From NCBI RefSeq assembly GCF_009914755.1, contig NC_060931.1: DNA of 64,000 nt; one strand, given 5' to 3'. This document shows positions 17,933 to 34,255 of the stretch, in pieces. Origin of the DNA: the human T2T-CHM13v2.0 reference genome, Homo sapiens. The translations under genes were made by a program, and so were the position numbers. Numbering within the stretch: the stretch's first letter is position 1; the number at the start of each line of letters is the position of its first letter. The notes under the pieces are model-generated. The model was not told the origin of the DNA, did not search any database, and saw only the letters and a list, made by a program, of their open reading frames with translations.

Positions 17933-18270
<338 letters not shown>

Positions 18271-18524
18271 CTAAATATTCCTTTTCTTAAAGCCTGTCCT
18301 TTGTTTCCACACAATCTGTAAGTGAAAACTCTTATCAAAATGGTTCATTCAAAAAAGCTTCTACTATTAACAAAGCATAACAATATAAATTTATGCTGTT
18401 ATGCATAGAGAATGTTATCCAAATTTTCTACTGAGTAGCCAGGAGAAATTTAATGAAAATGAAACAATATGATTACTGACTACAGAAAGAATACCTTTTT
18501 TTGGAGAAAAAAATATATACTTAC

Positions 18525-18648
18525 TTAGTGAGCTGCCCTTTATTCTTCTTGTTATCAACTCCATGATAAGTCACAGCTGCCAGTTTTCTGATTCCATAGT
18601 TCTCGTAGTGGACATTATTAGTAACATCTTTCAAGTCCTGCGTGTGTT
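18525..18648 (-). pseudogene. SEPTIN7P2: SEPT7-derived exon H (124 nt, 2-nt deletion frameshift): [41 protein letters not shown]
   Basis: atgacag|AACACACGCAGGAC (SEPT7 RTHMQD needs 2 more nt) ... ACTAA|gtaagt. Confidence 0.93.
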
Positions 18649-18884
18649 CTGTCATAAATAAACGGCAAGAGTTTGCTTCTATTAATAGCTAGGGGGCATA
18701 AAGCTAAAAAAGCTTTAATATAAATTCAAAATTTTACCAAAACAAAAATTTCAGATTTAAAATGAACAAAAGACTATTGTTAAGGAAGGTGGCATTCATC
18801 TGCTTTCATTTACACCCAAAGTAGAATAAAAAATAAGCTAACTTGACACCAAATTTAGACTCCATAGAGATTTTGAGACCCATA

Positions 18885-19972
18885 GCAAGGACTTCATGAC
18901 TAAAACAACAAAAGCAATGGCAACAAAAGCCAAAATTGACAAATGGGATCTAATTAAACTAAAGAGCTTCTGCACAGCAAAAGAAACTACCATCAGAGTG
19001 AACAGGCAACCTACAGAATGGGAGAAATTTTTTGCAATCTACCCATCTGACAAAGGGCTAATATCCAGAATCTACAAAGAACTCAAACAAATTTACAAGA
19101 AAAAAACAAACAACTCCATCAAAAAATGGGCAAAGGACATGAACAGACACTTCTCAAAAGAAGACATCTGTGCAGCCAACAGACACATGAAAAAATGCTC
19201 ATCATCACTGGTCATCAGGGAAATGCAAATCAAAACCACAATGAGATACCATCTCACGTCAGTTAGAATGGTGAACATTAAAAAGTCAGGAAACAACAGA
19301 TGCTGGAGAGGATGTGGAGTAATAGGAACACTTTTACACTGTTGGTGGGACTGTAAACTGGTTCAACCATTGAGACAGTGTGGCGATTCCGCAAGAATCT
19401 AGAACTAGAAATACCATTTGACCCATCAATCCCATTACTGGGTATATACCCAAAGGATTATAAATCATGCTGTTGTAAAGACACATGCACACGTATGTTT
19501 ATTGCAGCACTACTCACAATAGCAAAGACTTGGAACCAACCCAAATGTCCAACAGCGATAGACTGGATTAAGAAAATGTGGCACATATACACCATGGAAT
19601 ACTATGCAGCCATAAAAAAGGATGAATTCATGTCCTTTGCAGGGACATGGATGAAGCTAGAAACCATCATTCTCAGCAAACTATCACAAGGACAGAAAAC
19701 CAAATATCACATGTTCTTACTCATAGGTGGGAACTGAACAATAAGATCACTTGGACACAGGGTGGGGAACATCACACACTGGGGCCTGTCAGGGGTGGAG
19801 GGCTGGGGGAAGGATAGCATTAGGAGAAATATCTAATGTAAATGATGAGTTGATGGGTACAGCAAACCAACATGGCACATGTATACATATGGATCAAACC
19901 TGCACGTTGTGCACATGTACCCTAGAACCTAAAGTATAATTTAAAAGAAAAAGAAAAAAAGAAAAAGAGAAA
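18885..19972 (+). mobile_element. 5'-truncated L1PA (L1PA5/6-like): ORF2 C-terminus, 3'UTR and A-rich tail
   Basis: ORFs 18896-19402 and 19378-19737 translate to L1 ORF2 ([25 protein letters not shown]...HCWWDC, IKKDEFMSFAGTWMKLETIILSKL), with a frameshift near 19371. Confidence 0.96.
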
Positions 19973-20289
19973 TGGCCATAGGAGGGAAGACTTTCTTCTA
20001 GGGCATTGAGAAGATTGTCAAGCCCAGATGACAGGCACCACCTTTCCACCTTATGCCTCATTAATGGAAATATCACAATGCCCAGATCAAAGGCAGAGCT
20101 TCCCACCTATGAGCCTGCATCTCAATCTTCACCTTCCAGAAACCAGGCAGTGTCTTCTGGGCTGATTACTTCCAGTTTATCTCATTGTGATGTCCAAATA
20201 TTATAGCTCCCCTCTCCCTTGTGATGAGCATGGAAAATATCGGTGGCTCCAAATTCCGATTGTTTCACCTTAGAAAACAAATCTGAGAA

Positions 20290-20372
20290 CCCCCCTAGCA
20301 CCAAGCACAGTACCTGGATACAACAGGCACTCAATAAATATTTGCTCAGCCAATGCAAGGATAAATGGATGA
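20290..20372 (+). mobile_element. L2 3'-end fragment
   Basis: 'cctagcaccaagcacagtacctgg...ggcactcaataaatatttgct'. Confidence 0.65.
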
Positions 20373-21790
20373 AATTCCTCATCCCTGTATTCATTTCTGA
20401 AGACCTGCTGGTGAAAATCTAGCTCTAAACATCTTTCAGATTTATTCCATTGAGGTATGAAAAAGGAAAAAAAAATGACGATGCAAACGAACTCAGCAGC
20501 TGGCACAGAAAGTGCAGTCAGATTCTGCTTCCCCTGTAATTAAGTGTGCCCCATGCCTCTGACTTAGGCGATGACAGCGTGCAGCTTGCCTGCCTGCCCT
20601 GGGTGCCTGGGAGGGCAGGCAGCCTTCAGGATGCCACTATACAACACATTCGCCACCTTATCAAGATTTCCACAGCCACAGGAAGATTTCTCACCCCGCC
20701 ATGCCCCCCACAGGCTGCCCTGTGCTGTCATGCCCCTTCCTGGCTGAAGACATGCTGGCTGTCCCCTCCGCTCCTCCCCGGAGATGAGCATCTTTCCTGG
20801 GCCTCCCTTGGTGTTTTGACAGCTGCTCCATGTCCCCGCTGCTCAGAGAGGGAAAACCACTAGGGAGGCCTTGGATGGAAATATTACTCTCTGTCCAGGG
20901 TAGCATGGGCTTGATTGCGCCGGATTATTTCTGATTGTTGTCACTGGGCCAAGAGCACAGCGAAGTCAAGAAAGAAATAGCCTCATTAGTGAGAGTGCAG
21001 CGGTCTGGGTAGGCAGCAGTGGCGTGGAGGACCTGCTTTTGCAGGAGCAGTGAAGAGAGGGGAAGGAGTGGTGTCTTTATATTGAGATATTTTGAGATTC
21101 CTGGTTTCTCCACTCACTTCAACTGCCCATATAGGTTCTGCAGGTTCCACGAAGTTCTAGAACTTGTACAGGATCGAGCCCACAGCTTCTCATGGAATAA
21201 ACACAGAATCAAGAAAATCTGGTGGAAGTCGCCTGGTTTAACTCCTTTGAGGTCTAGAGCAGAAATTAAATAGTGCTTAATCTGTTACTTTAAAGAAGCC
21301 TAGTTCTAACTTTTCCTCAGCTCGCTCCCTCTTTTGCCTAGGATAGGAAGGGTGAGTGCAAATGGCCAGCTCCCTGTAGGTCTGCCTCTTGGAGCCCTAA
21401 GTTTTCCGCCATTTCTCTGCACTACAGGCTTTGCCCACAGTGGGATCCTCAGCCCAGGGACCTTGTTTGTACTCCTCTTGGTGCTGGTGCCTGCTGCCCA
21501 GCCACACACCCTGAGATTCATTTTTAAAGAAACATCAACAGCTCTTAAATGGCAAATAAGCCCCTTTCAAAGAGCTGGGATGACTTTGAAAAAGGGCCTG
21601 AGACAGCAGTCGACCTCTGACCATCTCCCCTCAGATGCCCTCTCCATCCCACCCTCTCTCCCCGTCCCTGTCCTCTGCTCTCCCAGCGAGCCTGTCTGCT
21701 CTTCAACCCTCCTTCCTGCCCGATTGTGCTGTCTCCTCAACACGTCCCATGTTGCTTGATTCCTAAAATAACATAGGGGAAAACATTTTT

Positions 21791-22098
21791 TTTCTTTGTT
21801 CTTTTTTTTTTTGAGACGGAGTCTCCCTCTGTCCCTCTTTCGCCAGGCTGGAGTGCAGTGGTGCAATCTTGGCTCACTACAACCTCCGCCACCTGGGTTC
21901 AAGCGATTTCCTGCCTCGGCCTCCTGAGTAGGTGGGACTACAGGTGCGTGTCACCACGCCTGGCTAATTTATTTATTTTTAGTAGAGACAGGGTTTCACC
22001 ATGTTGACCAGAATGGTCTCAATCTCTTGACCTTGTGATCCACCCACCTCGGCATCCCGAAGTGCTGGGATTACAGGCGTGAGCCACCGCGACCGGCC
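21791..22098 (-). mobile_element. AluS (Sc-like) nested in the transduced segment
   Basis: Full Alu with its own TSD AAAACATTTTTTT. Confidence 0.92.
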
Positions 22099-22751
22099 AA
22101 AAACATTTTTTTAAATAAAGAAAATGAATCCTCAAAAAAGAAAAAAAAAAAACCCACAAATCTCCCAAAGCAGTAACTGAAGGATGACCTTTCTATGAAA
22201 GAGTATTCATTTTTATATTATCTATTTAAATACTAGACAAGAGAGTGTAGATTAGCTACTACTGAAGCTCATAAAATCTAAAAGTAATTGCCTTTTAGCA
22301 ATATTACTAAGGTAATATATGAGTTTTTATTAAGACATAATAATACATTTCAGATGACATATCAAGTTGCTTTCAAACTAGGGAATTTTAGAGTAAATTT
22401 CTGTTTCTTCAAACTGTCTAGGTGAATGTGGTATTTTGGTTAAACAAATTTTTGCTTACAGCATTTCTATCATATATAAAATCAATACATATGAGATAAA
22501 TCTACAATAAATACGGGATGATGTCATCATTATTTAATTATTCAAGACACCGAAGATACCCTTAGCTGCTCCATGGATATCCTTTACCAATGTAGTGTTC
22601 TTGGATATACACGGTGTGGCAATACTCTGTATTGTCAGTTCTCCCTCTTCCCATCATCTGTTCTATCTCAAACTTCCTATATCTGCCATCATTCATCTTC
22701 ACCACTTTACTAAAACTCCCTTCTGGGAGACAAACACAAAGGTGTATTGTT

Positions 22752-23043
22752 GGCTGGGTGTGGTGGCTCATGCCTGTAATCACAGAACTTTGGGAGGCCG
22801 AGGTAGGTGGATTGCCTGAGCTCAAGGAGTTTGAGACCAGGCTGGCCAACATGGTGGAACCCCATCTCTACTAAAAATACAAAAATCAGCTGGGTGTGGT
22901 GGCGGACACCTGTAATCTCAGCTACTTGGGAGGCTGAGGCAGGAGAATAGCTTGAACCCAGGAGGTGGAGGTTGCAGTGAGCCAAGATCGTGCACTGCAC
23001 TCCATCCTGGGTATAAGAGTGAGACTCCGTCTCAAAAAAAAAA
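22752..23043 (+). mobile_element. AluS
   Basis: Full Alu; TSD gtattgtt. Confidence 0.92.
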
Positions 23044-23748
23044 GCGTATTGTTGTACTGTTTTTATCATTCCTTACATCCAGAAAACCTTTACTGTTACT
23101 TCACAATCCAGCTTCTTGAATCTCCCCCTTTGTGAATAAAATGTGATATTCAATTACTCTGATTCATATCGTACTGACATTTCCATGCAATTCTCTGATA
23201 GTTCACTCCCCTTAGTCCTAAGTCTGAGTTTTCCAAAAATCTCATCTCCCAGACTTTGTCCCTTGATAAATTCATGTTCTCTTATAGCCACAACAGTTAC
23301 TTCTAAAGCTCTACCACTCCACTTAGGGCAAGTCAGACAGCTCCCTACTCCTGGCGTATCTGGTGATTGACACTGAACAGTTCAGGCTAATTTGTCAATC
23401 TCTCATCAAAGAGTTCAACTGCTTTAGAAACCTTTGTCCCAGCCTTGACATCAAAGCATTCCAACCATGAACATTTTCTTCTTGGTTGTCATTCATTTTT
23501 GGTACAAGTATATGTCACAGGTGACATCATACCTCTTCAACTATAAGTTCCCCTTTACAAGGAACACACCATTACCTTTTGTGTCCCAATGCAGATAGCA
23601 GAAAATAGGAATTTTAACAAAATTGGTAACTCAAGATTGAAGCTGAGATATGATAAACACTTTTTGGAATAAATTATTGTTACCAGTTTCTCTAAGTGGA
23701 GAATAATAAGAATAAACACCTATGCCAATATAAAAAAAGTTTATGTAA

Positions 23749-24053
23749 TTTTTTTCTTTCTTTTTTTTGATACAGAGTCTTGCTCTGTCGCCCAGGCTGG
23801 ATGGAGTGTGGTGGTACAATCTCAGCTCACTACAACCTCTGCCTTTCAGGCTCAAACCATCCTCCTGCCTCAGCCTCCTGAGTAGCTGGGACTACAGGAA
23901 TGCAATACCACGCCCAACTATTTTTTATATTTTAGTAGAGACGCAGTTTCGCCATGTTGCTCAGGCCAGTCTTAAACTCCTGAGCTCAAGCAATTCTCCC
24001 ACCTTGGCCTCCCAAAGTGCTGGGAGTACAGGTGTGAGCCACTGTGCCCGGCC
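23749..24053 (-). mobile_element. AluJ/S
   Basis: Full reverse Alu. Confidence 0.9.
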
Positions 24054-25262: not shown

Positions 25263-26734
25263 CTACAGTGTTTTAGGTATGTAGGAAATTATTGATTGTA
25301 TACTTTTAAAATACACAAGAAAAAGTTATAGAATGCCACCATGTCAAGCACTGGACAAGTACCATAGAAGATTTAAAAATAAGAGGAATGCAATGGTAAT
25401 TAGTATTTATTAAACATTCTCTACTTATATACTGTCATAGCAGATTATATTATTAATAGGTATCCTTTTGAAGTCACACTTTAAGAATGGAAGAGGAAGG
25501 GAATAGTTCATAACACAGCCTGAAGTGTTGTATTCTCAAAACCCAGAGGATGACCTTCTCGTGCATTTGCTCTTCTCCCCTAATTGAGGCCTGGCAACCC
25601 CAACTGCTCAATCAACCCTGTCATGTAGTTCCTACCAAAAACACCTGCTCCTTTGAAAATAAAAGTCAATTACATGTCAATTTCTTTCATTTCAAAATTC
25701 ACTCTCATCTCTATTGTATTTCTTGAAGTAGCAGTTTGACTCTCTTAAATTTTCCCCCTCACTTCTCACTTGTGAGAATGACCTTCTTGTTATTCCATGA
25801 TTTCCAATTATTATCCATATTTATGTTACTACCTTTCTTTACATAGCTAAAGAGATTCTTGCGTTTCGGGAAAGTGGGTAAGAGGTACGAAAATGAATAG
25901 ATATCAACTTAAGACAGACATCTAAAACTGGAGGTTAAAGAGAGTATGTGGTAAAGGCGTAGAGAAGCAAGAGAGAGAAGCGGGAAATAGGGAGTGAAGT
26001 AGAGAGAGGAAGGAATGTGTCTCAAGATGAAAACACTGAGGATCATTTTGATGCCCTTTCTGTTCCTTACCTACTAACATCTCTAGTCCTATTACACTTT
26101 TTCTTCATGATTTCCTCTCTGCTGCTGCTTTTCTAATTCATTAGTAAGAGCTCCTCTTTACTAGTCCTGGTCCTCTAATCAGGATGGCCTCAATGTCCTG
26201 CTCCCATAGGCTTTCCTTCTCTTTCAGCAGGTGTGCAAGACACAGTGTAGGGATTTTTTTGTCTCACCTGATAGGAAGATTGGTTTTGTTCTCTATGTTC
26301 CAGTACATAAAATATGCCCTACTCACCAGCTACCAGGTTGTGTACCTTTTAACATTCAAATTCTAGCTTTTGACTCAAAAACTAGCCTTCCCTTATACAG
26401 TTTTCACAAGTTTTTCACATTAAGAAAGAAGAAGAGCCTCTTCTATTTCACCTTCCATAGTTATTTCAGTATTAAACCTCAACACAAAGTATAACGATAA
26501 AGTAAAGAGACTAATTTTCCTATGTATCCCTAGACACACAAATTATTTTGTAACTTTTGCTGATGACTTCAAAACCTTGGAGAAAGAATCGTCTACCTGT
26601 AGTGCTAACTTCATTACTAGACTGAAGATATAAATTTAAATTAGCTACATTTATAGAAGGCAAAAAGTAAATCTATCCAATTCTTATTTAGGGAAAGAAA
26701 ATCTTATGCTATTTCCATCATTGCTTGTACTTAC

Positions 26735-26786
26735 CTTATCAACATATTTCTTAAAACTGTAAAATCACAATGTTCACCATTTTCAA
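26735..26786 (-). pseudogene. SEPTIN7P2: SEPT7-derived exon G (52 nt): VENGEHCDFTVLRNMLI
   Basis: cttacag|TTGAAA ... GATAAG|gtaagt. Confidence 0.94.
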
Positions 26787-27482
26787 CTGTAAGAAAAAAA
26801 TAGACCGCAAATATTATATTTTCACTAAGCCTAGTCTTTTCAAAAAATATTTCACAGGAACTTGGGGGGTAAAAACAAGGGAGGGGAAATGCAAAACAGC
26901 TCAGATCAATTTTTTTGAGATTTAACACTAACATAGTACTCAATGTAAGGGCATGACAGAGAAGTGTACTATATTATTACCTTACTGTAGTTTAATCCTC
27001 AGAAACAGATGTCAACCTAACTAAAATGAGCTCTCCGGAAACAACTTTGAAATTTTGAAAGGGGAAATCACACATTTTCTCATTATTGGTAAAAAATATA
27101 TTTATTATATAATACATTTAAAAAATTCAGTGGTGTAAGTGAAGGGGGAATCACTTTAGAAAAAAATCTTAAGGTAACCAAAATGAAAAAGGGAGCCAAG
27201 AACTTTAAGATTCTTTACTTTTATTTTTAAAGAATGTATCACAAACAGGAATATTACTTGGGAGTAGAGAGGTAAACTACAAAAGAGAGATGCAAATCAA
27301 TTTCTCTGGTGCCTATTTTTAAGGGGTATGTAAGTTCTAAAGCCTCAACTCAGCAACTGAAAGTTGCCTGGGCATGACAGAGAGAGCTGGGAACAAGGTA
27401 CAGGGGTCACTGGTGGGAAAATTGTCAATAAGGACAGTAACTTGAAACAATATCCTAAAAATTAAAGAACTGTTCAAAATAA

Positions 27483-27615
27483 ACCAGGGGCAGTGGTGTG
27501 TGCCTATAGTGATGTGATGTGGGAGGAGCATGTGGGAGGATCACTTTGAGCTCAGGAGTTTGAGGCCAGTTGGGCAACATAGCAAGACCTTGTCTTTAAA
27601 AAAAAAAAAAAAAAT
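27483..27615 (+). mobile_element. FLAM/AluJ left monomer
   Basis: Single Alu arm with A tail. Confidence 0.8.
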
Positions 27616-28178
27616 TCAAAAATAATAGCAACAAACATAAAACAATCATGTCTCAATTTTGGTTTCAGCTTACTATAATACAGAAGATTAAATATCAGAT
27701 TAAACCAATACAATAAACCTATTGCCAAGAGGAAGGACTTCTGAGGTTTGGTGTTATAAATAAGATTTTATTGGTATTTAAAACTCCTTACTTAACCCTT
27801 AATAATTTAAGATAGCAGGTTAAAAAACAAAAAAATCCTTACAAAACTAGTAAAGAGTATCTCTTACTAATGAAATTTTTTTACTCTAAATATGCGATGT
27901 CAAAAAAGGCAACTTTTGCACTGAGGAAAGGAGACTGTGAATGTTTTAACTGGGCTTATTCATTTTTAAAATAATTCTTGAGGGTCCATGACCCATCTGA
28001 CATTCTGATAAAAGTGACTAGCCTTCTCTCCAAAATGTTTAATTCCAGGAGGTTCATTAGATTCCCTGGGAGCAAACTTAGGGCCCCAGGTAAAGAACCC
28101 CTCAATTTTAGTTATGTTTTCAAATAAGAAAACAGAAATAGACTTAATAATGAGGCAGGGATGTCAGCCAGGGTGGGG

Positions 28179-28408
28179 CAAGTTGAGTATCCCTTATTTG
28201 AAATGCTTGGGACCAGAAGTGTTTTGAATTTTTTTGGAATTCTGGAATATCTGTGTTATACTTACTGGCTGAGCATCCTTAATCCAAAAATCCAAAATTC
28301 AAAATGCTCCACTGAGCATTTCCTTTGAGTGGCATGTCAGTGCTCAAAACGTTTTAGATTTTGGAGCAATTCATATTTTGAATTTTCTCTTTAAGAATGT
28401 TCAACCTA
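28179..28408. mobile_element. MER2 (TcMar-Tigger) MITE, terminal end split by Alu
   Basis: caagttgagtatcccttatttgaaatgcttgggaccagaagtg ... aatgttcaacct. Confidence 0.8.
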
Positions 28409-28723
<315 letters not shown>

Positions 28724-28951
28724 CTACAACTTTAGGACTTAACACATACTTGCATGACTTAGTAGGATACAGGTTTGAAAAATATGAATGTATTTAAGAG
28801 GAAAATGAGACTACAAGAACCTGAAATCAGTACTATCCTTGAAATCTAGATTATATCAATACAGTGTGCATATTATACTCCTTACTATAAATACAAATTT
28901 TTAATCAGTTTTGAGATCTTATAGAAACTCATTCACTGAAGAAAACCTTAC

Positions 28952-32736: not shown

Positions 32737-33035
32737 GGCTGGGTGTGGTGGCTCACACCTGTAATCCCAGCACTTTGGGAGGCCGAGGCAGGTGGATCAC
32801 GAGGTCAGGAGATCGAGACCATCCTGGCTAACACAGTGAAACCCTGTCTCTACTAAAAATACAAAAAATTAGTCAGGCATGGTAGTGGGTGCCTGTAGTT
32901 CCAGGCTACTCGGGAGGCTGAGGCAGGAGAATGGCGTGAACCCAGAAGGCAGAGCTTGCAGTGAACCGAGATCATGCCACTGCACTCCAACCTGGGCAAC
33001 ACAGCGAGACTCTGCCTCAAAAAAAAAACAAAACT
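32737..33035 (+). mobile_element. AluY/Sc-like
   Basis: Full Alu with 'gagatcgagaccatcctggctaac' and 'gaatggcgtgaacc'. Confidence 0.93.
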
Positions 33036-33265
33036 TAAAACAGCCATATTTAAAAACTGACAAAGGATAAGGATACTATGACAATGGGTAAGAGCTTTGA
33101 GGGGAAAACTAAGGCAGAAGATTCAAGAGTTATTTTTAATACAGTATAAATGACAATACAGTAAAGCAGTAAGAGGAATGGATTGCAACACATTATACTA
33201 AAAATAGTAAAACCTGCAAATTATGAGAATGGTATAAGAAACCTGAGTTAACACATCCTGCTCAC

Positions 33266-33383
33266 CTGTTTTTTAAACTGTTGGCATTCCTCTGGCATGA
33301 GTGTGTCTGCTTTGGCAATAAGTGGGATGATATTCACTTTTTCATGCAAATGCTTTGTAAACTCAATATCCAATGGTTTAAGT
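33266..33383 (-). pseudogene. SEPTIN7P2: SEPT7-derived exon D (118 nt): [39 protein letters not shown] (G4 AKAD intact)
   Basis: tatttcag|ACTTAA ... AAACAG|gtgagc. Confidence 0.95.
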
Positions 33384-33479
33384 CTGAAATAGACGTATTT
33401 TATATGACTGAATTAATCAGTTTGAGAGAACAAGATTCTTCACATCCCCAGTTAGATTTCAATTATCTTCAGTTGGTCG

Positions 33480-34255
33480 ACTGACTCTCAAATCTTCATA
33501 CGCAGCCCATATCTTACTGTTAAGTTCCACATTTGTGTTTACCCAGTGGATACGCTACCCAGGTGTTCCATGGGCTCCTTAAAATCAAAAGCTCGTCTGA
33601 ACCCCATTTTCCCTCTTCTGTGCTTCCTATCTCAGTGAATGGCACTACAGTCTACCCAGTTACTCAAGTGTGAAACCTAGCATTCCTCCCCTCCTCTAAT
33701 CCTCTTCCCATATATATAGTATGTGTATAGATGTATATATGTATGTATGCATATCTCCAATTCCATTACTTTAGTCTAGGCCACCAAGACCTTTGGAATG
33801 AATAACTATAATACAAACCATCCATACTAAAGTCAGAGTGGTCTTTCTAAATCCAAATCTTACTGAGTTATGCCCTGACCAAAAATCTTATCAAGACCAG
33901 ATGCCTTAACTAGTATGGCCTACGAGGCTTGTGAAGACCTAGATTCTCCAGCTGACCTCATCTCTTAGCATTCCTGGCCTTTCCTTTGCCTCCTACTTCC
34001 AATGTGCCAGCCTTTTACTTCTTTTACTTTTACTTCTTACAATTCCTTAAAAGCACCATACTTTGGCATCTGGCCACAGGCTATTACCTTGGCTGGAACA
34101 CCCTCCATTCTCATCCTCCTTCTCCTTGGCCTGGCTAATTCCTATTCATCCTTTAGGACACTGGCTTACGATCCAATTTCCACTGGGAATCCTTTTCTAA
34201 CCTAAGACTAGGCATATTTCTATGTGGTCACAACACTTAATGTGCTGTACAGTAA
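33480..34255 (+). mobile_element. L2 fragments
   Basis: 'ttcctatctcagtgaatggcactacagtctacccagttactcaag' and other L2 ORF2-derived motifs; continues ~34561-34690. Confidence 0.65.

What the first reader, a model, noticed from the sequence alone, without database searches (positions are those of the whole stretch)
18876..22158. L1-mediated 3' transduction of ~1.8 kb foreign DNA into a SEPT7 intron
Seen: a 5'-truncated L1PA (18885-19942) whose end reads TATAATTTAAAAG, with no AATAAA. Its A-rich tail (19943-19972) is followed by a GC-richer unique block unlike the flanking AT-rich intron. After removing a separately TSD-flanked Alu (21791-22098), the block ends AATAAA (22114-22119), 14 nt, then a second A tail (22134-22152). 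Candidate TSD AGACCCATA (18876-18884) / AAACCCACA (22150-22158) matches 7/9, and both mismatches are transitions. Established: L1s with weak poly(A) signals read through and co-mobilise 3' flanks. Inference: the ~3.27-kb unit is one insertion, and 19973-21790 tags its source L1 elsewhere in the genome.
Basis: partly seen in the sequence, partly recalled or inferred. Interest (0 to 1): 0.75.

Follow-up and report, generated by a model that had tools for sequence, protein, structure and literature searches.

The report
Old parentless LINE-1 3' transduction
A jumping gene (LINE-1) fragment and 2.2 kb of DNA copied from chromosome 6 sit together in five duplicated copies of the septin-7 gene but not in the parent gene; they likely arrived as one read-through RNA copy roughly 25-35 million years ago from a source element that is missing from this genome, which makes it a clear but ordinary example of a known process.

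Summary
The parent SEPTIN7 intron has an empty site with one 10-bp target (TTTT|AAGACCTATA); the 3,274-bp insert fits exactly between its two copies. The cargo matches chr6:91,611,072-91,613,235 and ends at the donor's own poly(A) site (AATAAA, 14 nt, CA, then a GU-rich stretch), so it was copied through RNA. Four more chr7 duplicates carry the same unit.

Corrections: the cargo is ~2.17 kb and includes the Alu, which the donor also has. Most of the first 'A tail' is donor DNA. Three of five copies have an intact L1 AATAAA. No young L1 lies within 30 kb upstream of the donor, so the predicted source L1 is not there.

Best reading (~0.8): 3' transduction from a source L1 that never fixed or was later lost, a known 'parentless' class. 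Rivals are a second insertion into the L1 tail (~0.09) and a template-switch chimera (~0.07). Distances put gene duplication, insertion and first re-duplication close in time, about 25-35 Mya (calibration recalled). No function is evident. New member of a known kind; modest interest.

The parts
18875..18884 (+). Left target-site duplication copy (GAGACCCATA here, AAGACCCATA in the 4 other chr7 copies), preceded by TTTT; L1-endonuclease-type site TT|AAGA
   Evidence: Parent SEPTIN7 empty site TTTT-AAGACCTATA-AATC at chr7:~36,031,406-36,031,415
18885..19942 (+). 5'-truncated L1PA: end of ORF2 (broken) plus 3' UTR; no microhomology at the 5' junction
   Evidence: 88-93% identity to the other L1 matches listed; junction compared with 6 unrelated copies; three-frame translation shows stops
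19943..19951 (+). Short remnant of the L1 A tail, with later GAAAA-type expansion; the exact boundary with the cargo is ambiguous
   Evidence: Copies at 64.70 and 57.31 Mb have only 4 A between GTATAAT and the donor-identical run
19952..22133 (+). Cargo (~2.17 kb) copied from chr6:91,611,072-91,613,235; starts with the donor's A-rich run (inferred original target site of the source L1)
   Evidence: blastn 19948-22135 against chr6 at 90.4% over 2192 columns; unique part 92%; 21-nt exact match at the 5' end in 3 of 5 copies
21791..22098 (-). Alu carried inside the cargo; already present at the donor, with its own flanking repeats at 21780-21789 / 22100-22109
   Evidence: Same position, orientation and flanks at chr6
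22114..22119 (+). AATAAA poly(A) signal of the cargo; donor homology stops 14 nt later at a CA
   Evidence: Conserved in all 6 copies; donor continues with a 17-of-21 G/T stretch 11 nt further on
22134..22148 (+). Non-templated A tail of the inserted RNA copy
   Evidence: Absent at the donor, which reads CCTC-AA-GCCAAC
22149..22158 (+). Right target-site duplication copy (AAAACCCACA, decayed)
   Evidence: Parent alignment resumes at 22149; other copies read AAACCCCATA or AAAAAACACA

Best explanation
The 3,274-bp unit is absent from parent SEPTIN7, sits between the two copies of a 10-bp target, and joins an L1 3' end to 2.17 kb of chr6 DNA ending at that DNA's poly(A) site; it is likely one L1 3' transduction whose source L1 likely sat at chr6:91,611,072 and never fixed or was later lost. 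Inferred steps: an active L1PA inserted at the donor's A-rich run. Transcription read through the L1's weak end and two upstream hexamers (+360, +1293) and was cleaved at the site after the Alu. The RNA was reverse-transcribed into a TT|AAGA nick in the intron of a newly duplicated SEPT7 copy (or of a SEPT7 allele that was then duplicated) and stopped 1.06 kb into the L1. Segmental duplication then made five chr7 copies. Shown: empty parent site, TSD, donor location, poly(A) end, five copies, no young L1 at the donor, near-equal divergences. Not shown: that an L1 ever stood at the donor junction.
For: Empty site and 10-bp TSD; the parent exon is 41 of 41 aa identical to PDB Septin-7. One non-chr7 full-length match; its flanks have no second copy apart from a simple repeat and a ~200-bp repeat, and it shows no tail or TSD, so chr6 is the donor. 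Homology ends 14 nt after AATAAA at CA, with a GU-rich stretch downstream only at the donor. L1 and cargo are in the same orientation, L1 5' and cargo 3', with one TSD around both and none around the L1 alone. All 5 copies carry both parts. The five L1 copies share only 1 derived site in 1021 columns against 6 unrelated L1s, and the cargo's internal branch is ~0.004, which leaves little time for two separate events. Parentless transductions are common in print: 17 of 18 (PMC7980453) and 24 of 27 (PMC13141329) in dogs (passages).
Against: No L1 remnant at the donor: the only L1-like match in 38 kb is an ancient fragment ~20 kb upstream (76% over 55 bp; 33-43% aa). No independent sibling insertion carrying this cargo was found; these searches score only the best candidates. 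The A-rich junction fits all three mechanisms equally well. The donor junction (C|AAAAG) is a weaker endonuclease match than TT|AAAA (consensus TTTTT/AA quoted). The published parentless rates are for recent canine insertions, not old fixed primate ones.
Confidence: 0.8

Rival explanations
1. Nested insertion: the L1 inserted first with the 10-bp TSD, then a polyadenylated chr6 transcript (an orphan retrocopy) was inserted into its A tail with an invisible all-A duplication.
For: L1 tails are good endonuclease targets; three paralogs did gain a later Alu exactly at the cargo tail with no visible TSD. The A-rich junction allows it.
Against: It needs two events at one ~20-bp site inside an internal branch of ~0.001-0.004 substitutions per site. 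0 of 5 copies has the L1 without the cargo. It still needs a transcript through the chr6 region, which an upstream L1 explains most simply.
Confidence: 0.09
2. Template-switch or RNA-ligation chimera: L1 reverse transcriptase primed on a chr6 RNA, copied 2.17 kb, then jumped to an L1 RNA tail through the A-rich match.
For: One TSD, same orientation, A-rich match at the junction, no L1 at the donor. Such chimeras are described in 10.1101/2025.02.02.635956 (passages).
Against: In the passages read, the chimeras have the L1 at the 3' end and the other RNA at the 5' end, the reverse of this case. No chr6 transcript was identified; annotation of that region was not available here.
Confidence: 0.07
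3. DNA-level capture (double-strand-break repair or duplication) of the chr6 segment next to an L1.
For: Repair-mediated capture exists (PMC2671141, search listing and start of abstract only).
Against: The copy stops 14 nt after AATAAA at a CA and gains an A tail the donor lacks; the target is a TT|AAGA site with a TSD.
Confidence: 0.02

Closest known systems
L1 3' transduction (Moran 1999, Goodier 2000, Pickeral 2000, Szak 2003: seen only as citations; signatures read as passages in PMC3024322)
   Same: L1 3' end, then unique flank starting with an A-rich run, a downstream AATAAA, a second A tail, one TSD around the whole, and a donor match lacking the tail.
   Different: The source L1 is absent; the cargo (2.17 kb) is longer than the 50-1600 bp confirmed set in PMC3024322; the event is old and was then copied by segmental duplication.
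'Parentless' LINE-1 3' transductions (PMC7980453, PMC13141329; passages)
   Same: The transduced sequence maps to a site with no adjacent L1; PMC7980453 also mentions one shared with a duplicated sequence.
   Different: Those are recent dimorphic canine insertions whose parents may still segregate. This one is an old primate insertion, so the parent is likely extinct in humans.
AluSx3-WaluSat transduction followed by segmental duplication (10.1101/2021.07.12.451456; passages)
   Same: Same genome assembly; a catarrhine-age transduction later spread by segmental duplications.
   Different: Alu-linked, a 64-nt cargo that grew into satellite arrays. Here the cargo is 2.17 kb of intergenic-looking DNA with no expansion.
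RNA/LINE-1 chimeric insertions such as U6/L1 (10.1101/2025.02.02.635956; passages)
   Same: Single TSD around L1 and non-L1 parts in the same orientation.
   Different: There the L1 is 3' and the passenger 5'; here the order is reversed.

Membership tests
L1 3' transduction | Whole unit absent at the pre-insertion site, with one target copy | tested here: met
   Parent SEPTIN7 empty site
L1 3' transduction | One TSD around L1 plus cargo at an endonuclease-type site | tested here: met
   10-bp TSD after TTTT; none after the L1 alone
L1 3' transduction | Cargo matches a donor locus that lacks the terminal A tail | tested here: met
   chr6:91,611,072-91,613,235
L1 3' transduction | Cargo ends 10-30 nt after a poly(A) signal | tested here: met
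   AATAAA, 14 nt, CA; GU-rich stretch downstream in the donor
L1 3' transduction | L1 5' of the cargo, same orientation | tested here: met
L1 3' transduction with traceable parent | Source L1 directly upstream of the donor in this genome | tested here: not met
   No young L1 in 30 kb upstream or 5.8 kb downstream
Parentless L1 3' transduction | Donor found but not adjacent to an L1 | tested here: met
   class as defined in PMC13141329
Parentless L1 3' transduction | Independent proof of the former source (sibling insertions, or an L1 at the orthologous site in another genome) | tested here: inconclusive
   No sibling in this genome; no other primate genome is held
L1PA5/L1PA6 subfamily | Subfamily diagnostic positions | not testable with these tools
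   No repeat library on hand; 3.8-5.1% from the majority of 6 close genomic relatives, which themselves score 2.9-4.3%; age class inferred only
RNA/L1 template-switch chimera | Non-L1 RNA 5' and L1 3' | tested here: not met
   Order is reversed

The most novel reading that the evidence does not exclude
The unit is a reverse-order chimera: L1 reverse transcriptase began on a polyadenylated intergenic chr6 RNA and jumped onto an L1 RNA's tail through an A-rich match, producing a transduction look-alike with no parent L1 ever present. If so, some 'parentless transductions' in genome catalogues would be template-switch products.
Probability: 0.07. Interest if true: 0.55.

Novelty: new member of a known kind. 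Interest (0 to 1): 0.27.

Why it matters
It is a well-documented old example: donor, empty target site and five descendant copies are all in one genome. It marks where an active L1 likely stood ~25-35 Mya and left no other trace found here. The unit is also a shared derived marker tying the five intron-containing SEPT7 duplicates on chr7 to one ancestral copy, and its later Alu gains and deletion order the duplications. No functional effect was found: the cargo is intronic, antisense to the pseudogene, with longest ATG ORFs of 59 and 75 aa.

Tried and rejected
1) Source L1 next to the donor: blastn and tblastn over chr6:91,581,001-91,619,000 found only an ancient fragment ~20 kb upstream; the positive control against an L1 locus gave 81-89% aa matches. 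2) Sibling transductions: searches with the block, its first 340 bp, the downstream 2 kb and a junction pattern gave only chr6, the five chr7 copies and short or weak repeat hits; the exact pattern matched only 2 of the 5 known copies, so it is a weak test. 3) chr6 as recipient: rejected; no tail, and only two 5-mers are shared between its ends. 4) Alu as a later insertion in the intron: rejected; the donor has it. 5) Missing L1 AATAAA as the cause: rejected as evidence; with only two lineages the direction of that change is likely, not proven. 6) Coding role of the cargo: no ORF over 75 aa. 7) A GTATAAT 7-mer 25 bp upstream of the donor junction was taken as chance; not tested. 8) Prior description: searches for SEPT7P2 + transduction (7 papers listed), SEPTIN7P2/SEPT7P2/SEPT13 + duplication (11 listed) and septin 7 + segmental duplication terms (15 of 72 listed) showed no title on this insertion; in-text searches of PMC1475853 and PMC13015009 found no SEPT7 mention. 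Szak 2003, Pickeral 2000 and the Science version of the T2T repeat paper are not held, and the T2T transduction table (S13, all confidence bins) could not be seen, so this locus may already be listed there.

Full report
Observation. The features are in the sequence as described. The unique block is 49% GC against 29% and 32% in the adjacent intron. The proposed 7/9 TSD is weak on its own: 2.4% of 20,000 random 25-nt intron stretches match that 9-mer as well, and 4.1% for random 9-mers.

Empty site. The left flank matched six intron-containing loci, all on chr7, plus five exon-only hits; the right flank matched the same six. One of them, at chr7:36.03 Mb, lacks the insert. Window 18271-18884 and 22149-24000 align to it with a 10-bp overlap, and it reads TTTT-AAGACCTATA-AATC. 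Its neighbouring exon translates 41 of 41 residues identical to Septin-7 in the PDB, so I take it as the parent gene; only this one exon was checked. The TSD is therefore 10 bp, 18875-18884 and 22149-22158, at a TT|AAGA site, and the insert with one TSD is 3,274 bp. The L1 begins at 18885 with no microhomology, judged against six unrelated L1 copies.

Donor. Window 19980-21770 gave 13 matches: itself, four chr7 duplicates (three split in two pieces), one full-length match at chr6:91,611,100-91,612,890 (92%), and four weak 50-80 bp hits. The chr6 match runs from window 19948 to 22135 and includes the antisense Alu. At its 3' end homology stops 14 nt after AATAAA, at a CA. The donor continues with a 17-of-21 G/T stretch, whereas the chr7 copies continue with an A tail. 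By established knowledge this is the layout of a cleavage and polyadenylation site, and it shows the copy went through RNA. Two upstream hexamers were passed. At the 5' end the donor has its own A-rich run; 21 of 21 nt match it in three copies, 15 and 9 nt in the other two. The donor's flanks have no second copy apart from a simple repeat and a ~200-bp dispersed repeat, and the donor shows no tail or TSD.

Missing parent. There is none. In chr6:91,581,001-91,619,000 the only L1-like match is an ancient fragment about 20 kb upstream. No sibling insertion was found, though the tool scores only the best candidates. The L1's lack of AATAAA is a property of 2 of the 5 copies; the other three read GTATAATAAAAAA, and 3 of 6 unrelated L1s also lack the hexamer.

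Copies and timing. The five copies form two well-supported groups: this locus with chr7:36.09 Mb, and 64.70, 64.44 and 57.31 Mb (100/100 in both trees). All-site distances are 7.7-8.2% for cargo against donor, 6.8-7.6% for flanks against parent, and 5.9-8.3% between the two groups. Without CpG sites they are 5.9-6.1%, 6.2-6.6% and 5.2-5.8%. Under a clock the cargo and the gene duplicate each predate the two-group split by only about 0.003-0.004 substitutions per site. The five L1 copies share 1 derived site in 1021 columns against six unrelated L1s; those six were picked from the top of 40 scored among 15,687 candidates, so they are biased towards similarity. Duplication, insertion and first re-duplication were thus close in time. 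With a human-macaque divergence of about 6.5% (recalled, not from a call) this is roughly 25-35 Mya; PMC4083085 places the L1PA6/L1PA7 boundary at 26.8 My (passage). The subfamily was not assigned. The data cannot tell whether the insert entered the new duplicate or a SEPT7 allele that was then duplicated.

Mechanism. The best explanation is a 3' transduction from an L1 that stood at the donor's A-rich run and did not persist (0.8). The order of parts, the single TSD, the poly(A)-site end and the short time window support it. The class is in print: 17 of 18 transduced sequences in PMC7980453 and 24 of 27 in PMC13141329 had no adjacent L1 (passages), and PMC3024322 describes the cargo as starting with a copy of the source's target site (passage). 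The former presence of the source L1 is inferred, not shown. A nested orphan retrocopy in the L1 tail (0.09) needs two events at one spot in a short interval. A template-switch chimera (0.07) would have the reverse order of those described in 10.1101/2025.02.02.635956 (passages). DNA-level capture (0.02) does not explain the tail.

Known or new. It meets five tested features of a 3' transduction and fails the 'parent present' feature, so it is filed as parentless. The T2T repeat preprint reports 183 high-confidence L1 3' transductions in this assembly (passage); its table could not be seen, so this locus may be listed. Literature searches showed no paper on this insertion. Papers were seen as search listings or passages only; none was read whole, and no supplement was seen.

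Verdict. New member of a known kind, with no sign of function. Interest 0.27.

Noticed in passing
window 17966-18270 (- strand): An Alu with 22 CpGs and a clear TSD is present only in this copy; it is absent from parent SEPTIN7, from the chr7:36.09 Mb copy and, by alignment gaps, from the other three. Likely a younger insertion.
   Followed up: partly
L029, L030, L031 (chr7:64.70, 64.44, 57.31 Mb), at the point matching window 22133/22134: A full-length + strand Alu sits exactly at the cargo's cleavage point with no visible TSD; the site TC|AAAA fits an endonuclease nick, so a blunt or deletion-type gain in that lineage is likelier than a loss in the other two.
   Followed up: partly
L029, L030, L031, inside the cargo Alu and at window 20731-20828: These three copies share a second Alu nested in the cargo Alu's middle A-rich linker and a 98-bp deletion; the donor and the other two copies lack both changes.
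   Followed up: yes
chr11:50,367,499-50,371,677: Another SEPT7 duplicate matches window ~26000-28770 and ~32740-34000 at 92-93% but was not hit by either flank of the insertion.
   Followed up: no
L026 2039-2045 (chr6, ~25 bp upstream of the donor junction): The 7-mer GTATAAT, the same as the L1's last bases, lies just upstream of the donor junction; probably chance.
   Followed up: no
window 18525-18648: This pseudogene exon is 124 bp here and in the 36.09 Mb copy, against 126 bp in the parent and the other three copies: a shared 2-bp frameshifting loss.
   Followed up: partly
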